Positions 3,001 to 9,000 are shown, counted from the first letter of the whole stretch. The stretch: DNA of 62,080 nt, filler included, from Coriobacteriales bacterium (GCA_031263105.1; 10 parts of 10 records of this genome joined end to end with filler, not necessarily neighbours in it), one strand, 5' to 3'. Program-made: the numbers.

Positions 3001-6000
3001 GATAGAATTGCGAAGTAGAATACCGGTCTGTGGCAGAGACGAAGGTTCAACCATGCGCTACACACTTGAGCAAATTAAGGCTGTCGTCGCTAGATACGCA
3101 TCGGAAAACGGAATAAAGAGCGTGTGGCTGTTCGGCTCGTACGCCGATGGGCGCGCCACGGACGAGAGCGACATCGATCTGCTGGTCGAGTACTACGAGG
3201 CACCGTCCCTGCTCAACTATCTGGGGTTCCAAGAACAAATCCAAGACGAGCTCGACATCCGGGTCGATGTGATACGGTACCCTCTCAATCGCGAGCGGCT
3301 CATCGACCCTGACTTCGACCCAGGGAGGACGGTGACGGTGTATGGTTGAGAGAAACGGGCTGTTGGTTGAGCGAATCGTCGGCGAAATAGACTTCGTGCT
3401 TGATGCCTCGAAGGCTATGACCGAGGACGATTTCGCAGGTGACGTGTTCGCACAGCACGCATTGACGATGGCGATACTCAACATAGGGGAACTGGCGGGG
3501 CGCTTGGGCAGCGATTACCGCGCAAGGCATACGGAGATTCCCTGGCAGCAGATAGTCGGCTTCAGGAACGCCGCCGCACACAGCTACGATGGCCTCGACA
3601 TGGGGATTGTCTGGCGAACAGTCCGGAAGGACCTCCCAGAATTGAAGGCCATGTTGTTGGCTCTTTAACGCGGGGCAGGGGGCACGGACGTTTTCTTGGA
3701 CTTACTGACCTACTTCGTTACTGTTCACGCCCCCACTGTCATTCCGAGCCTGTCGAGGAATCTTCGACCGCGAAGCGGTCGACCGTAGGTCGAAGGCCCC
3801 CTCCGACCTACTGTTGGTCGCTTCGCGACCAAAGANNNNNNNNNNNNNNNNNNNNNNNNNNNNNNNNNNNNNNNNNNNNTTAATTAATTAANNNNNNNNN
3901 NNNNNNNNNNNNNNNNNNNNNNNNNNNNNNNNNNNTCTTTGGTCGCGAAGCGACCAACAGTAGGTCGGAGGGGGCCTTCGACCTACGGTCGACCGCTTCG
4001 CGGTCGAAGATTCCTCGACAGGCTCGGAATGACAGTGGGGGCGTGAACAGTAACCTCATCCGTACACCCCTATCGCGGCTTGGAGGATGTCGCGGGCCTT
4101 GGGGGTCGCGGTGCCGCCTGATGTCTGTTCGACGACAAGGGCGACCACGACCGTGTGCCCGTTCACCTCCACATACCCTATGAACCAGGAATCGTCCTGG
4201 GGATTGTCCGTCTGTGCGGTCCCCGTCTTGCCGCGCACGGTGTAGCCGTCGATCTGCGCAGCGGTCCCGGTCCCGGTCGCCACGACGCCTGCCATGGCCT
4301 CCTGCACCTTTTTGGCGACCTCGGGGGAGAGGGCCTCGCCGATGCGGACGGGGCTTGCCTCCTGCACCTGCTCGCCCTGCGCGTTCACCACCCGCTCGAG
4401 GACATGCGGCCTCATGAGCACCCCGTTGTTCGCTATCGCCGAGGCGACCATGCCCATCTGGAGCACGGTAGCCTGGGGGCCGGCGGGGCTCTTGTGCTCG
4501 CCGACAGGCTGGCCGACGCCTGCCCAGGCGGTCTCCCATTGCGTCATCTCGCCGGGGTCGGGCATGAGTGACCGCACGACGTCGAAGTCCGTTCCGAGGT
4601 CGCGGTTGAAGCCGAGGCGCTCGGCGGTGTCGCAGAGTCGGCTGGCACCGACCTGGTCGGCCACCTGGGCGAAGACGGTGTTGGAGCTCACCTCGAATGC
4701 CTTGAGCAGGCTGACGTTCCCATAGTCGAACGAGTCGAAGTTCGTTACGGGGGCATTGCCTATGTCGATGCTGCCGGGCGCATCGTAGCTCGCATCGAGC
4801 GTGATGCCCTGCGCGAGCGCACTGGCAAGCGTGACGGACTTGAAGGTCGATCCGGGGGCGTAGAGCCCCTGCGTCGCGCGGTTGACCAGCAGGCCCTCGC
4901 CGCCCCCCGAGCCGCCCCCCGAGCCGCCGCCGCTTCCGTCGAGTATCGACTCGACCGCATTGTTGTCGAAGGTCGGCGCACTGGCGCTCGCCAACAGGGC
5001 GCCGCTGCCCGCCTCAAGCACGACCACGCCGCCGACCTCGCCTGCAAGCGCAGCCTCGGCGGCCGCCTGGATGCGCGCATCGAGCGTGAGGTAGAGGTCG
5101 TTTCCGGGCACCTGCCTGTCGGCGAGCACGTCGAGCGCGTCGCTCCAGCTGCTGAGGTCCGTCCGTCCCGCGAGCGTGTCGGCATAGGTGGACTCCACGC
5201 CCGTCGAGCCGAACACGGAAGAGGTGTAGCCGACGACATGGGAGGCGAAGGAGCCTCCGGGGTACACGCGTTTCCAGCGCCCGTTCTCGTCCTGCTCGCT
5301 CCGTGCGAGCACCGTCCCGTCCGTCGTGAGGATGGCCCCACGCTGGATGTTGAGGTTGCGTTCCAGCACGTGGCCGTTCGCGGGGTCCGCATGCATGGCC
5401 TCGGCATCGATGAGCATGTGCCAGGCGAGGTTGCCGATGAGCACTGCAAACAGGCAGGCGAAGCCCGTGACGAGCAGCGTGATGCGTTTGCCGAGGGTCA
5501 CCCTGCCGAGTATGCCCCCGTCGAAGGTGGAGACGCCCTGAAGCTCCTTCCCTATCCCCGTCGCGTTGTCGCTGGTGCGCAGCAGCAGGCCGACGATGAT
5601 GAAGCTCGCGAGGAGCGAGGAGCCCCCCTGGCTCATGAACGGCAAGGTGACCCCTGTCAGCGGAATGAGCCGCGTCACGCCACCGACGATGACGAAGGCC
5701 TGCAGGACGATGGCCGTCGTGAGCCCTATGGCGGCGAAGGCGGCCACGTCGGAGTCCGCCCGCGCGGCGACGGTGAGGCCGCGCACCGCGAACAGCACGA
5801 AGAGCAGAAGCACGGCGCTCGCGCCGAGCAGGCCCATCTCCTCGGCCATGGCGACGAAGATGAAGTCGCTTTCGACGACGGGGATGAGGTCGGGCAGGCC
5901 GCGCCCGATGCCGGTTCCGAACAGGTCGCCGTCTGCGAGCGAGTAGAGGCCTTGGATGAGCTGCCAGCCGGATGTCTCCCGGTATGCAAAGGGGTCGAGC

Positions 6001-9000
6001 CAGATGTCGATGCGCTGCTGCACGTGGCTGAAGACAAAGAAGGCCGCCACGCCGCCGACGGCCGCCAGGGCCACGCCTGCAACGACGTACACCTTGCGCC
6101 CGCTCGCGATGTAGGTCATCACGAGGAACAGCCCGAAGAACAGGAGCGCGCTTCCGAGGTCGCGCTCGAACACGACGATCACCAGGCTTATCGCCCACAT
6201 GACGAGCAGGGGGGCCAGCGTGCGCAGGTCGGGCACCGTGAAGGGCCCGATGCGCCGTCCGCCGACCGAGAGCATCTCGCGGTTGTCCGCCAGATAGCCT
6301 GCGAGGAACAGCACGACAAGCACCTTGGCGACCTCGCCCGGCTGGAACGAGAAGCTGCCGACCTTGAGCCATATCTTGGAGCCGTAGATCTCCGTCCCCG
6401 CGACGGCCGGCAGCAGCAACAAGATGATGCCGAGCAGCATGAGGATGTACTTGTAGCTGCAAAGCCTGCGGACGGAGCGCACCAGGACGAGCGTCACGAG
6501 CATCGCGGCGATGGAGATGAACAACCACATGATCTGGCGGGGCGCGAGTTCGGGCGCAAGGCGCATGACGAAGGCGATGCCGATGCCGCTGAGCACGAAC
6601 ACGATGGGGAGCAGCGCGGGGTCGGCGTTCGGTGCGAGCCTGCGCACGGCGACATGGGAGACGACGAACGCAGCGAACAGGCCCAGGGGCACTGCCAGCG
6701 TCTCAAGGCTCAGGGGCTTCTCGTCGTTCACGAGCGCAAGGACGAAGAGCAGGATGATGGCCGGTGTGGCTGCGAGCAGCAGGAGAAGCTCGGTGGTTCG
6801 GCGGCTCATGTCTCGCTCATCGCCCTTCCAGCAGTTTCTCGTACTGCCTGACGAGGTCCCGCGCCTCGTCGAGCGACTCGGTCTGGATGCCCGTCGCAAG
6901 GCCGCTGACCGTCGTCGGGTTGAGCGGCGGGGCGGTCGAGGGGACGCGCGTCCTCTCCTCCCGCCATTTGAGCTCGAAGCCCAGCACGTCCCCCGGAAGC
7001 CCGCGGTACAAGGCGACGTAGCCGTCCTCCTCGATAAGGAACGCGGCGTTGCGCGCGTAGGCGTACACGCCGCCGACCGTGCCCGCCACGATGAGGACGA
7101 GCACGAGGAGGAAGGCGGCTATGCCGCGCATGAAGCGGCGCTTCTGACGCAGGGCCGCCTGCGGCCTCGCATCGTTGATGTCGACGACGATGACGGTGAT
7201 GTTGTCGTGGCCGCCCGCCTCGTTCGCCGCATCGACGAGCGCGTCGGCGGCGGCTTGGGGATCGGGGGCTGCGGCGAGCAGCTGGGAGAGGCGGGCGGTG
7301 TCCACCATGCTGTTCAGCCCGTCGGAGCAGAGCATGAGGCGGTCGCCCGTGTGGATGCAGACCTCGTAGATGTCCGGCTGCAGCCCCTCGTCGGAGCCGA
7401 GTGCGCGCGTTATGACGGAGCGCTTGGGATGGACGCGGGCCTCCTCGGGCGTGAGGCGTCCCGTGGCGACAAGCTGTGCGACGAAGCTGTGGTCGCGGGT
7501 CACCTGGCGCAGCTGTCCGTCCCGCATAAGGTAGGCACGCGAATCGCCCACCTGCGCGATGAGGAGCTGGTCGTTTTCGATGACCGCTGCGGTGAGCGTC
7601 GTGCCCATGCCCTCCCGGCCGATGCCCCTGCGCGCGGCGTCGATGATGACCCGGTTCGATTCGAGCACCGCGTCCCTGAGCGCCGTGCCGTCCGTGCCGC
7701 GTATCTCGGCATCCTCGAAGACGCGGACGGCAAGCTCGCTCGCCACCTCGCCTGCGGCATGTCCGCCCATGCCGTCGGCGACGACGTAAAGGGGCGGCAG
7801 GACCAGGAGCGAGTCCTCGTTATGGTCGCGTATGCGGCCGACGTCGGTGCGTGAGCCGACATCGGCATGCGGGGCCGTGCGCGACTTGGCTCCGACGCGC
7901 GAGAAGGGCCCGGCGCGCTTGGCGCCCCCCGTTCCCGCCTGCGAGGACGGCCAGGGCCCGTTCCTTTTGGCAGGGGTCATGGACCGCTCACCCGTATGGT
8001 CACATCGCCGATTCCGACGATGTCGCCGTCGTTGAGCTGCTCGGCGCCGTGTATGCGGGTGCCGTTCACCGTGGTTCCGTTCGTCGAGCCGAGGTCCTCG
8101 ATGACGAGGTTCTCGGCGAGGCGCGAGAAGCGCGCGTGACGCCCTGAGACGTAGGCGGCGGCGATGACGATGTCGGCGCCGGGGGCGCGTCCCACCACGA
8201 CGGGGCCGGCGACGGCTATCTTCACGCCGCGCAGCTCCCGGGGCCCGTGCTGTATGGCGACCGTCCAGGCGTCGCCCTTATGGCCCTGGCCGCGCACGAG
8301 GCCGATCCCCGTCCGCATCACGACGAACAGGAACAGGAACAGCAACACGACCAGCAGGATCCGTCCGGCGAACAAGGCAATGTCGATCATGCGCGTCCCC
8401 CTGGCACACGCGCGTGCGCTCCCACCGACACGCGGAACTCGAGGACCGTCACGCCGAGGGCGATCTGGTCGCCGTCGCGCAGCAGCGCCGAGGCGACGGG
8501 GCTGCCGTTGAGGCGTGTCCCGTTGGTGGAGTCGAGGTCGGTGAGCTTCCATGAGCCGAGCGCGTCCTGCGTGAAGCGCACGTGGCGGCGCGAGATGTTC
8601 ACGTCGTCGACGGTGATGTCGCAGGAGGCATCCCGCCCGAGCACCATGGACGTATCGGTGAGCGCGTAGCTCTTGCCTGCGTTGAGGTTGGCGAGGCGCG
8701 CCGTGCCGCCGAGGGCGGGCCCTCGAAGGGCTTCGCTTACGGGTCTTGGGGAGGCGCTGTCTGCGGCCGCCCCATACGGGTCGTCATCTGCGGTCGCCAG
8801 ACGGGCGGCCCCGCTCGCGGCGACCATCGGCAGCGGCTCCGCCTGCAGCGGCACCAAAGGCTCCACCTGCGGCAACGCATCGAGTGCCGGGAGCACCACA
8901 GAGGCGCCGGCGATGCCCGGCCCGGCCCCTGCGGCCGCCCCGAGGCGGTCGAGGCCCGCGTCGTCCGCCTTGTCTTTCCCCCTGTCCTGCCCCGTTGGCT

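What a model noticed while it worked through the whole genome (the two positions that open the first line are those of the whole stretch)
4056..6809. Natural single-chain SEDS-bPBP (RodA fused to PBP2) in the pknB-type cell-wall operon
g00005 encodes RodA (FTSW_RODA_SPOVE) and a class B penicillin-binding protein (PBP dimer + transpeptidase) as one 917-residue polypeptide, in the operon with a PP2C phosphatase, two FHA proteins and a Ser/Thr kinase. I read it as a working glycosyltransferase-transpeptidase fused 1:1, a trait of the class Coriobacteriia. New would be a natural single-chain peptidoglycan synthase, a convenient object for structural and enzymological work on SEDS-bPBP coupling.
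Evidence so far: Pfam on g00005: FTSW_RODA_SPOVE, PBP_dimer_2, Transpeptidase; neighbours g00006-g00009 PP2C, FHA, FhaA_N/FHA, Pkinase. Six-frame search of 300 Actinomycetota: matches covering residues 1-917 (or 2-913) without a stop in 8 of 9 genomes of one Coriobacteriales family (the ninth matches 2-776) and in 3 of 3 genomes of a second family of the class; in two further Coriobacteriales families the two halves match separately but inside one open frame of 970-1020 aa; in most other Actinomycetota listed the RodA half (about 1-415) matches alone or the match holds a stop codon. A second, unfused RodA and PBP2 pair lies in the mreBCD operon (g00208, g00209, C25; call 9).
(Added by a program. 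Inside this text positions count along the whole contig: they may not be those of the stretch shown here. "Call 12" and the like, gene names such as g00115 and contig names such as C1 are that model's own, and its searches are not shown. The text may have been shortened before it was handed on; [...] marks where a part breaks off. The agent that wrote the report below was given it as the finding of a first reader that could run no searches.)

Follow-up and report, generated by a model that had tools for sequence, protein, structure and literature searches.

The report
Natural fused RodA-PbpA wall synthase
One real gene joins a cell-wall glycan polymerase to its cross-linking partner enzyme and is kept fused throughout its bacterial class, but such natural fusions, including in this class, are already described.

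Summary
Observation confirmed. Window 4056-6809 (minus strand) is one uninterrupted 917-codon gene with a SEDS polymerase domain (residues 67-415), a 30-residue cytoplasmic linker, one membrane helix, a PbpA-type pedestal (490-571) and a transpeptidase domain (593-909). It follows kinase-FhaA-FhaB-PP2C. Catalytic residues of both halves are invariant in 28 aligned relatives. A frame spanning the junction was found in 145 of 150 other genomes of the class, and none showed a stop between the halves. The protein is the orthologue of the actinobacterial rodA-pbpA pair, not of the MreB-linked RodA-PBP2, which this genome also carries unfused. Outgroups have a stop between the two genes, a single one in the junction I read (G178), so stop loss explains the fusion.

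The novelty claim fails. Microlife 2025 (PMC12516126) describes this architecture and gene context in a Coriobacteriales species and tabulates many Coriobacteriia entries. Nat Commun 2023 (PMC10449877) states that natural SEDS-PBP fusions exist and solved an active engineered RodA-PBP2 fusion. The periplasmic halves of the Eggerthella lenta and Atopobium parvulum proteins are in the PDB, the Atopobium one with beta-lactams.

The fusion is not exclusive to the class. Activity is untested. Interest is low.

The parts
4056..6809 (-). Fused rodA-pbpA gene, 917 codons plus stop (stop codon at 4056-4058)
   Evidence: 80% identical 917-aa homologue and 120 of 120 best hits with the same three Pfam domains.
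5565..6809 (-). SEDS glycosyltransferase half, residues 1-415 (Pfam match 67-415). Catalytic Asp315 is at 5865-5867.
   Evidence: D315 aligns with E. coli RodA D262 and T. thermophilus RodA D255; E159/K162 align with Tt E108/K111. All are invariant in 28 sequences.
5487..5576 (-). Cytoplasmic linker, residues 412-441, with conserved D414, T417, G418, E422, L434, G435, R436, L439, G440
   Evidence: 121-130 of 130 sequences at each of these positions. AF2 pLDDT is below 50 at 418-434. The motif is absent from 17 unfused outgroup RodA tails.
5409..5486 (-). Membrane anchor helix of the PBP half, residues 442-467
   Evidence: AF2 helix 433-467 at pLDDT 85-95. The hydrophobic stretch ITLLVTGFACLFAVLIGNLAW is visible.
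5097..5342 (-). PbpA-type pedestal (PBP_dimer_2), residues 490-571
   Evidence: PF21922, E 2.3e-19.
4083..5033 (-). D,D-transpeptidase domain, residues 593-909. Ser654 is at 4848-4850. Motifs: S654-T-F-K657, S708-S-N710, K861-T-G863.
   Evidence: all motif residues invariant; 4MNR: 44% identity, target TM-score 0.95.
6817..7980 (-). PP2C Ser/Thr phosphatase (PstP-like), 387 aa
7977..8390 (-). FhaB-like FHA protein, probable 137-aa form (the longest ORF runs to 8552)
   Evidence: Relatives' proteins are 137-168 aa.
8387..9421 (-). FhaA (FhaA_N + FHA), 344 aa
9423..11342 (-). Ser/Thr kinase without PASTA domains, 639 aa. The C-terminal half is hydrophobic and looks polytopic from the sequence.
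   Evidence: An equivalent kinase lies upstream in 3 of 4 complete relatives examined.
3936..4055 (.). Half of a palindromic repeat element that abuts the gene's stop codon; the contig ends inside it
   Evidence: The last 62 nt of contig C199, which carries a PASTA kinase, are identical to the first 62 nt of this contig.

Best explanation
The gene encodes a single-chain peptidoglycan synthase. An N-terminal SEDS-family lipid II glycosyltransferase (RodA type) ends in the cytoplasm. A 30-residue cytoplasmic linker joins it to the membrane helix, PbpA-type pedestal and D,D-transpeptidase domain of a class B penicillin-binding protein. It is the orthologue of the adjacent rodA and pbpA genes of the actinobacterial fhaA-fhaB-pstP-rodA-pbpA-pknB cluster. 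The fusion arose by loss of the stop codon between two tightly packed genes in an ancestor of the class, and has been kept since. I infer that the chain folds back on itself like a two-chain SEDS-bPBP complex, polymerises glycan strands and cross-links them. I also infer that it is controlled by the co-encoded kinase/FHA/phosphatase module. The genome also has an FtsW and a MreBCD-linked RodA-PBP2 pair, so this is a third synthase whose cellular role (polar, septal or lateral growth) is not known. Shown here: one open frame, domain order, intact catalytic residues, conservation, gene context. Inferred: activity, intramolecular packing, regulation, role.
For: One open frame with three domains.

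Catalytic residues: D315 aligns with E. coli RodA D262 and T. thermophilus RodA D255. W147, E159, K162, D315, S654, K657, S708, N710 and K861-T-G863 are invariant in 28 sequences of 40-80% identity.

Distribution in the class (150 other genomes):
- Full-length match without stop in 24 of 25 (families f2 and f5) and in 70 of 82 (other families).
- RodA half inside a 938-1082-aa open frame in 43 of 43 (f3 and f4). The PBP half was listed in the same-length frame for 10 of these, and one was confirmed by Pfam.
- No genome has a stop between the halves. The five without a junction-spanning frame are three contig-end fragments and two incomplete genomes.

The 12 class sequences form one clade in both half-trees (SH-aLRT 100 and 99).

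Outgroups: RodA half alone, or both halves with 1-2 stops. In G178 the junction reads ...LLRTSDRSA*MDRPIRRLF, in frame.

Structure: AF2 mean pLDDT 87.7, pTM 0.72, with only the linker and a Gly/Ser loop disordered. The solved periplasmic halves from Eggerthella lenta (4MNR) and Atopobium parvulum (4JBF and seven beta-lactam complexes) superpose at target TM-score 0.92-0.95. M. tuberculosis PbpA superposes at 0.84-0.87.

Context: a PASTA kinase lies directly downstream in 4 of 4 complete relatives and probably here too. An engineered E. coli RodA-PBP2 fusion with the same domain order is active (PMC10449877, passages).
Against: No activity, expression or protein-level evidence exists for this gene; no RNA holder was listed. 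How the two halves pack could not be inspected, because the tools give no coordinates. Two relatives carry frameshifts: G149 in the SEDS half and G046 in the transpeptidase domain. These may be sequencing errors, or the enzyme may be dispensable. NCBIfam equivalog cut-offs are not reached for any named RodA, FtsW or PBP2 model, so the specific cellular role cannot be read from family membership. The source assembly is 86% complete with 6.5% contamination, and the contig is only 7.8 kb.
Confidence: 0.85

Rival explanations
1. The gene is translated as one chain but works as two proteins: the disordered linker is cleaved, or translation restarts inside it, so the fusion has no functional consequence.
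For: The linker is predicted disordered (pLDDT below 50 at 418-434). Its length varies, with about 37 extra residues in one family (L026).
Against: Position 433, where the ancestral pbpA start would lie, is Val in 93, Ile in 34 and Ala in 3 of 130 sequences, so no start codon is conserved. Linker positions D414, T417, G418, E422, L434, G435 and R436 are kept in 122-130 of 130 sequences, which is not expected of a spacer that is thrown away. No stop or frame change was seen at the junction in 145 of 150 genomes. Engineered fusions work uncleaved (PMC10449877, passages).
Confidence: 0.08
2. Only one half is catalytic. For example, the SEDS part serves merely as a membrane anchor or scaffold for the transpeptidase, or the reverse.
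For: NCBIfam equivalog cut-offs are missed by all RodA, FtsW and PBP2 models. Frameshifts occur in one half only in G149 and G046.
Against: The catalytic residues of both halves are invariant in 28 sequences that share a mean column identity of 59%. Both half-trees give the same clade, without long branches in the class.
Confidence: 0.05
3. The fusion is an assembly or sequencing artefact that joins two adjacent genes.
For: The genome is a fragmented assembly (250 contigs). The only run that holds the sequence may be its own source.
Against: The same continuous frame is present in 24 families of the class, including single-contig genomes. It is also present in 120 of 120 best database hits and in crystallised proteins named after their SEDS half.
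Confidence: 0.01

Closest known systems
931-aa GTase-PBPA_dimer-TPase protein of Senegalimassilia faecalis and the 'bifunctional class B' synthases of PMC12516126 (Microlife 2025)
   Same: Same three domains in the same order, same class, same flanking Ser/Thr kinase and phosphatase genes, and coexistence with canonical FtsW/FtsI and RodA/MrdA pairs (passages and supplement rows).
   Different: A different species and family. The best database hit is 80% identical, and genomes of the same order are 51-57% identical. That paper gives no class-wide count, junction analysis or linker conservation in the passages I read.
Separate rodA and pbpA genes of the actinobacterial pstP cluster (e.g. Mycobacterium)
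   Same: Orthologous halves, the same cluster with fhaA, fhaB, pstP and a PASTA kinase (PMC6554272 passages), and the same PbpA pedestal fold (3UN7/3LO7).
   Different: Two polypeptides there, one here. Outgroup RodA tails are short, unconserved and end in a stop.
Engineered E. coli RodA-PBP2 fusion (PDB 8TJ3; PMC10449877)
   Same: SEDS at the N-terminus, a short cytoplasmic linker, then the bPBP. That construct polymerises lipid II and binds bocillin (passages).
   Different: It is synthetic, with a TSGSGSGS linker and a canonical MrdA pedestal (PF03717). The halves here are only distantly related to it (E 5.8e-27 and 1.6e-28).
PDB 4MNR (Eggerthella lenta) and 4JBF/4N1X/4QJG/4R0Q/4R1G/4R23/4R3J/4RA7 (Atopobium parvulum)
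   Same: Periplasmic pedestal plus transpeptidase of the same fused protein family: 40-44% identity, target TM-score 0.92-0.95. The Atopobium entries include complexes with seven beta-lactams.
   Different: They are truncated constructs without the SEDS half, linker or membrane helix. My search found no paper describing them.
Rhodococcus jostii RHA1 947-aa SEDS-pedestal-TPase protein
   Same: A natural N-terminal SEDS fused to a bPBP (PMC12516126 passages; cited as the example in PMC10449877).
   Different: It has a canonical pedestal domain and lies next to mreB, not in the pstP cluster. I did not examine it here.
Class A PBPs
   Same: Glycosyltransferase and transpeptidase in one polypeptide.
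   Different: Their glycosyltransferase is a GT51 domain outside the membrane, unrelated to the polytopic SEDS fold (established knowledge; PMC8262863 introduction).

Membership tests
SEDS family (FtsW/RodA/SpoVE, PF01098) | Profile match above the curated cut-off | tested here: met
   247.6 bits against a cut-off of 26.4, residues 67-415.
SEDS family (FtsW/RodA/SpoVE, PF01098) | Catalytic Asp in the large outer loop and the conserved Glu-Lys pair | tested here: met
   D315 aligns with E. coli RodA D262 and T. thermophilus RodA D255. E159/K162 align with Tt E108/K111. All are invariant in 28 sequences. That these residues are essential is recalled from the RodA literature, not read here.
SEDS family (FtsW/RodA/SpoVE, PF01098) | Lipid II polymerase activity | not testable with these tools
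   Needs an enzyme assay.
Class B penicillin-binding protein | SxxK, SxN and KTG active-site motifs | tested here: met
   S654-T-F-K657, S708-S-N710 and K861-T-G863, invariant in 28 sequences.
Class B penicillin-binding protein | One membrane helix, then a non-catalytic pedestal, then the transpeptidase | tested here: met
   Helix 433-467, PBP_dimer_2 490-571 and Transpeptidase 593-909.
Class B penicillin-binding protein | Covalent binding of beta-lactams | not testable with these tools
   Relatives at 40-41% identity were crystallised with seven beta-lactams (entry titles). This protein is untested.
PbpA subfamily (actinobacterial pstP cluster) | PbpA-type pedestal (PF21922) and closest solved non-Coriobacteriia relative is PbpA | tested here: met
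   PF21922 at 69.8 bits against a cut-off of 27. M. tuberculosis PbpA 3UN7/3LO7: E 8e-33, target TM-score 0.84-0.87.
PbpA subfamily (actinobacterial pstP cluster) | Gene order fhaA-fhaB-pstP-rodA-pbpA-PASTA kinase | tested here: met
   for the upstream genes. A PASTA kinase follows in 4 of 4 complete relatives. In this genome it is inferred from a 62-nt contig overlap inside a repeat, so that last link is probable, not proven.
RodA (rodA_shape TIGR02210), FtsW (TIGR02614) and PBP2 (pbp2_mrdA TIGR03423) equivalogs | Score above NCBIfam's equivalog cut-off | tested here: not met
   196.6 against 336.7, 246 against 337.5 and 246 against 455. The label 'RodA fused to PBP2' is therefore loose. The MreB-linked RodA and PBP2 lie elsewhere in the genome.
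Natural single-chain SEDS-bPBP ('bifunctional class B synthase', PMC12516126) | SEDS and bPBP transpeptidase domains in one open frame, kept in relatives | tested here: met

The most novel reading that the evidence does not exclude
The linker is not a passive tether but a regulatory element specific to the class. Its conserved G-D-x-G-T417-G-x3-E422 block is absent from unfused RodA tails, and it sits directly before the conserved LGR...LGKRLT juxtamembrane segment of the PBP helix. It could be the site where the co-encoded kinases, PP2C phosphatase and FHA proteins act, for example through phosphorylation of Thr417 and FHA docking. Signalling would then be coupled to the position of the PBP membrane helix, which in two-chain complexes stimulates the polymerase.
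Probability: 0.15. Interest if true: 0.5.

Novelty: already known. Interest (0 to 1): 0.2.

Why it matters
A natural 1:1 fusion is genetic evidence that a SEDS polymerase and its class B PBP work as one unit, and it could serve as a ready-made single chain for structural work. Both points are already in print, and an engineered fusion has already delivered an active enzyme and a cryo-EM structure.

- The fusion is ancestral to, and almost universally kept in, the class. Zero of 150 genomes showed a stop between the halves.
- It is explained by loss of a stop between two tightly packed genes.
- It arose independently at least once more in the phylum.
- Its linker carries a conserved motif next to a kinase/FHA/phosphatase module.

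Only the last point opens a new experiment.

Tried and rejected
- I suspected a second fusion (MreD-PBP2) in the 844-aa frame on contig C25. I rejected it after reading the translation. The first 150 or so residues are Ser/Arg/Pro/Cys-rich, as out-of-frame high-GC sequence is, and a plausible start (MDPVALTAV...) precedes the membrane helix.
- Long open frames around the RodA half in outgroup genomes G312 (915 aa), G267 (830 aa) and G202 (834 aa) looked like further fusions. tblastn places their two halves in different frames, so they are separate genes.
- Expression: no RNA holder was listed. The only run holding the sequence (X1) is flagged as its possible source, so it gives no independent support.
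- Two papers were not held: Fay et al. 2010 (PMC2904850) and Arora et al. 2018 (PMC5925798). My recollection that mycobacterial RodA is phosphorylated in its C-terminal tail therefore stays unverified and is not used as evidence.
- A full-text search for the PDB codes found no paper on those structures.
- A search for 'natural fusion' wording with SEDS brought up PMC10449877.
- Complex prediction was not used. The two halves resemble solved SEDS-bPBP pairs, so a pass would not have changed my odds.
- I did not fold the SEDS half alone or search it against structures, because the sequence matches were already decisive.

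
Full report
**Observation.** The window is a chain of short contigs separated by N linkers. The contig in question (C2 of the assembly, 7,774 bases) is window 3936-11709. 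On its minus strand an open frame runs from 6899 to 4056. From the ATG at 6809, which lies 7 nt after the stop of the PP2C gene, it encodes 917 residues without a stop. The N-termini of 27 aligned relatives start at this Met. Pfam finds FTSW_RODA_SPOVE at 67-415 (E 2.5e-73), PBP_dimer_2 at 490-571 (2.3e-19) and Transpeptidase at 593-909 (1.1e-53). The four upstream genes on the same strand are a Ser/Thr kinase, FhaA, a small FHA protein and a PP2C phosphatase. The FHA protein probably starts at 8390 (137 aa), not at 8552.

**Anatomy.**
- Residues 1-415 are the SEDS half.
- The last SEDS helix (396-414 in the AlphaFold2 model) is followed by about 30 residues that the model leaves disordered (pLDDT below 50 at 418-434).
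- A long helix (433-467) contains the hydrophobic anchor of the PBP half.
- The pedestal and the transpeptidase domain follow.

The model has mean pLDDT 87.7 and pTM 0.72, from 28 aligned sequences and no templates. The only other disordered stretch is a Gly/Ser loop at 627-637. The SEDS alignment to solved RodA covers residues 70-411 here against nearly the whole T. thermophilus chain. From my knowledge of the solved RodA structures, that chain ends in the cytoplasm. The linker carries R411, K421, R436, K441 and R442. An in-to-out PBP helix after it is therefore topologically what a class B PBP needs.

**Catalytic equipment.** phmmer alignments to solved SEDS proteins put D315 on E. coli RodA D262 and T. 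thermophilus RodA D255, and E159/K162 on Tt E108/K111. That these residues are essential is my recollection of the RodA literature. I aligned 28 sequences of 40-80% identity:
- P0001 itself.
- 15 picked from the 120 listed hits.
- 12 translated from genome loci.

In this alignment W147, E159, K162, D315, S654, K657, S708, N710, K861, T862 and G863 are invariant.

The periplasmic half has close solved relatives. 4MNR is titled 'D,D-Transpeptidase Domain of Peptidoglycan Glycosyltransferase from Eggerthella lenta' (44% identity, target TM-score 0.95). Eight Atopobium parvulum entries (40-41% identity) include seven in complex with penicillin G, penicillin V, cloxacillin, dicloxacillin, nafcillin, cephalothin or cefapirin. 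M. tuberculosis PbpA follows at TM-score 0.84-0.87. The transpeptidase of this protein family therefore binds beta-lactams in crystals. For the window's own protein this is inference.

**Which pair is it.** NCBIfam's equivalog models all score far below their cut-offs: ftsW 246 against 337.5, rodA_shape 196.6 against 336.7, pbp2_mrdA 246 against 455. The genome has two more SEDS genes:
- One lies on C76 and carries the SEDS domain. It sits between frames that I took by position for murD and murG, so I read it as ftsW.
- One 399-aa gene on C25 follows mreB, mreC and a canonical PBP_dimer+Transpeptidase gene.

The fused gene is thus a third synthase. Three things identify it as the counterpart of the actinobacterial rodA-pbpA pair: its PbpA-type pedestal, its similarity to PbpA, and its place behind fhaA, fhaB and pstP. 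[quoted passage not shown] A non-PASTA kinase precedes fhaA in 3 of 4. In the window's genome the contig ends 120 nt after the stop, inside a palindromic repeat that occurs at five contig ends. The last 62 nt of contig C199 equal the first 62 nt of C2, and C199 carries a kinase with four PASTA domains reading away from that end. Adjacency is therefore likely, but because the overlap lies in a repeat it is not proven.

**Distribution in the class.** I searched 150 other genomes of the class, from 23 further families.
- Families f2 and f5: a full-length match without a stop in 24 of 25. The 25th (G046) matches 2-776 and has the rest of the transpeptidase in another frame.
- The 82 genomes of other orders: 70 full-length.
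  - One matches 36-914.
  - Four are cut by contig ends but cross the junction (G121, G025, G034, G031).
  - Two cross the junction in shorter frames. In G149 two frameshifts break the SEDS half; the cause in G065 was not examined.
  - Three are contig-end fragments that do not cross the junction (G143 on two contigs, G117, G113).
  - Two have only the 30-35% identical paralogues (G016, 86% complete; G043, 59% complete).
- Families f3 and f4: the RodA half lies in an open frame of 938-1082 aa in 43 of 43. The PBP half was listed in the same-length frame for 10 of them. One (G100) is a 952-aa three-domain protein by Pfam, with about 37 extra residues in the linker.

In sum, a frame crossing the junction was seen in 145 of 150 genomes, and a stop between the halves in none.

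**Distribution in the phylum.** I searched 200 genomes of at least 90% completeness, 185 of them outside the class.
- 18 had no match at E 1e-45.
- The listed rows show the RodA half alone, or a match reaching into the PBP half with one or two stops. The latter are 12 rows: G178, G249, G167, G256, G245, G303, G164, G327, G158, G200, G227, G253. G167 is flagged unpublished; the point holds without it.
- Only G237 has a stop-free match across both halves. Its 892-aa protein has the three domains and sits between PP2C and a PASTA kinase.
- 189 weaker rows were not listed, so a fusion whose halves match separately could have been missed.

**Origin.** In G178 the rodA frame ends ...LLRTSDRSA, then one stop, then MDRPIRRLF of pbpA in the same frame. 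The window's protein reads ...LLRTSDNATG... at the same place. Loss of that stop is enough to explain the fusion.

I built quick maximum-likelihood trees of the two halves separately (30 rows: 12 fused from the class, G237, 17 unfused; LG+G4, SH-aLRT only). Rows left out:
- L009, L012 and L014, close relatives in f2.
- L022 and L023, duplicates of genomes already included.
- L027 and L028, which are frameshifted.

The 12 class sequences form one clade (support 100 and 99). G237 sits beside the unfused G321 (95 in the PBP tree, nearest row in the RodA tree). The fusion is therefore ancestral in the class and arose separately in G237's lineage. The root and deeper branches are poorly supported.

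**The linker.** I aligned 130 fused sequences:
- P0001 itself.
- 118 of the 120 hits. The two left out, of 708 and 1129 aa, were dropped for length.
- 11 sequences from genome loci.

Most of them are 55-80% identical to the query, so conservation in this set is partly inherited. Counts out of 130:

| Position | Sequences |
|---|---|
| D414 | 124 |
| T417 | 122 |
| G418 | 126 |
| E422 | 123 |
| L434 | 130 |
| G435 | 129 |
| R436 | 130 |
| L439 | 128 |
| G440 | 126 |
| R442 | 130 |
| T444 | 121 |

The residues between 419 and 433 vary. The G-D-x-G-T-G block is present in the five class loci printed (families f2, f3, f5, f7, f14). It is absent from the 17 unfused RodA tails, which are 6-53 residues long and unrelated to one another, and from G237. 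Position 433, where the old pbpA start would be, is Val in 93, Ile in 34 and Ala in 3 sequences, so an internal start is not conserved. This argues against a chain that is made to be split. It leaves open that the linker is a regulatory site for the neighbouring kinase, FHA and phosphatase genes. That idea is untested.

- Its Figure 5B is a 931-aa Senegalimassilia faecalis protein (Coriobacteriales) with TPase, PBPA_dimer and GTase domains. It is flanked by Ser/Thr kinase and phosphatase genes and sits beside canonical FtsI/MrdA pairs.
- Its Table S10 lists the architecture IPR001182-IPR054120-IPR001460 for Adlercreutzia, Atopobium, Berryella, Cryptobacterium, Denitrobacterium, Senegalimassilia and others.
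- The same table lists it for Anaerolineae (29 rows among the 30 I saw) and Anaerotalea (Bacillota).
- The accession IPR001182 occurs 492 times in the supplement file. I read about 60 rows, not the whole table.

[quoted passage not shown] It shows that an engineered E. coli RodA-PBP2 fusion is active and gave a 3.0 A cryo-EM structure. NCBI already names these proteins 'FtsW/RodA/SpoVE family cell cycle protein' in Coriobacteriales genomes. The claim that a natural single-chain synthase would be new is therefore not tenable, and neither is exclusivity to the class.

**Limits.**
- Nothing here tests activity, expression or processing.
- The intramolecular packing could not be inspected.
- The cellular role of this third synthase is unknown.
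- The source genome is a fragmented assembly, 86% complete with 6.5% contamination.
- The supplement of PMC12516126 was read only in part, and two older papers were not available.

Noticed in passing
window 3801-3835 and 3936-4055 (ends of contigs C1 and C2): A palindromic repeat element of about 175 nt, with terminal inverted repeats of about 34 nt (GGTTACTGTTCACGCCCCCACTGTCATTCCGAGC...), abuts the stop codon of the fused gene. Its 35-mer is found at five contig ends of the assembly (C1, C2, C54, C199, C203), so it breaks the assembly. It looks like a MITE- or REP-like element inserted between the fused gene and the PASTA kinase gene.
   Followed up: partly
window 9423-11342 (-): The kinase upstream of fhaA has no PASTA domain. 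After a Gly/Arg-rich stretch it has a long hydrophobic C-terminal half that looks like several membrane helices. An equivalent kinase precedes fhaA in 3 of 4 complete relatives. Its sensor part matched no Pfam family.
   Followed up: partly
L018 (G237:C20), 4132-6810 (-): An 892-aa fused RodA-PbpA in a genome of another class of the phylum, in the order FhaA, PP2C, fused gene, PASTA kinase, YkuD L,D-transpeptidase. Both half-trees place it with an unfused gene (G321), so it is an independent fusion.
   Followed up: yes
L027 (G149:C1) and L028 (G046:C1): Two single-contig genomes of the class carry frameshifts in the fused gene: two in the SEDS half of G149 and one near residue 776 of the transpeptidase in G046. 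These are either sequencing errors or signs that the enzyme can be lost.
   Followed up: partly
window 4899-4931 (-), residues 627-637: A Gly/Ser-rich insert (GSGGGSGGGSGGG) at the start of the transpeptidase domain is predicted disordered. The same loop varies in length among relatives, up to a Ser/Asn-rich insert of about 40 residues in P0080.
   Followed up: no
window 264-1469 (-) and 1549-2595 (+), contig C1: Two transposase genes (DDE_Tnp_1 with DUF772; DDE_3 with HTH domains) fill the short contig that precedes this one in the window.
   Followed up: partly
window 11931-23207 (-), contig C3: A 3,758-codon open frame with an N-terminal and a C-terminal hydrophobic segment and Ala/Pro/Ser-rich repeats. 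It is probably a giant surface protein. I did not analyse it.
   Followed up: no
L026 (G100:C1), 8036-10891 (+), and families f3/f4 generally: In two families of the same order the linker carries about 37 extra residues, so searches match the two halves separately inside one 938-1082-aa frame. The conserved GDxGTG and LGR blocks flank the insert.
   Followed up: partly
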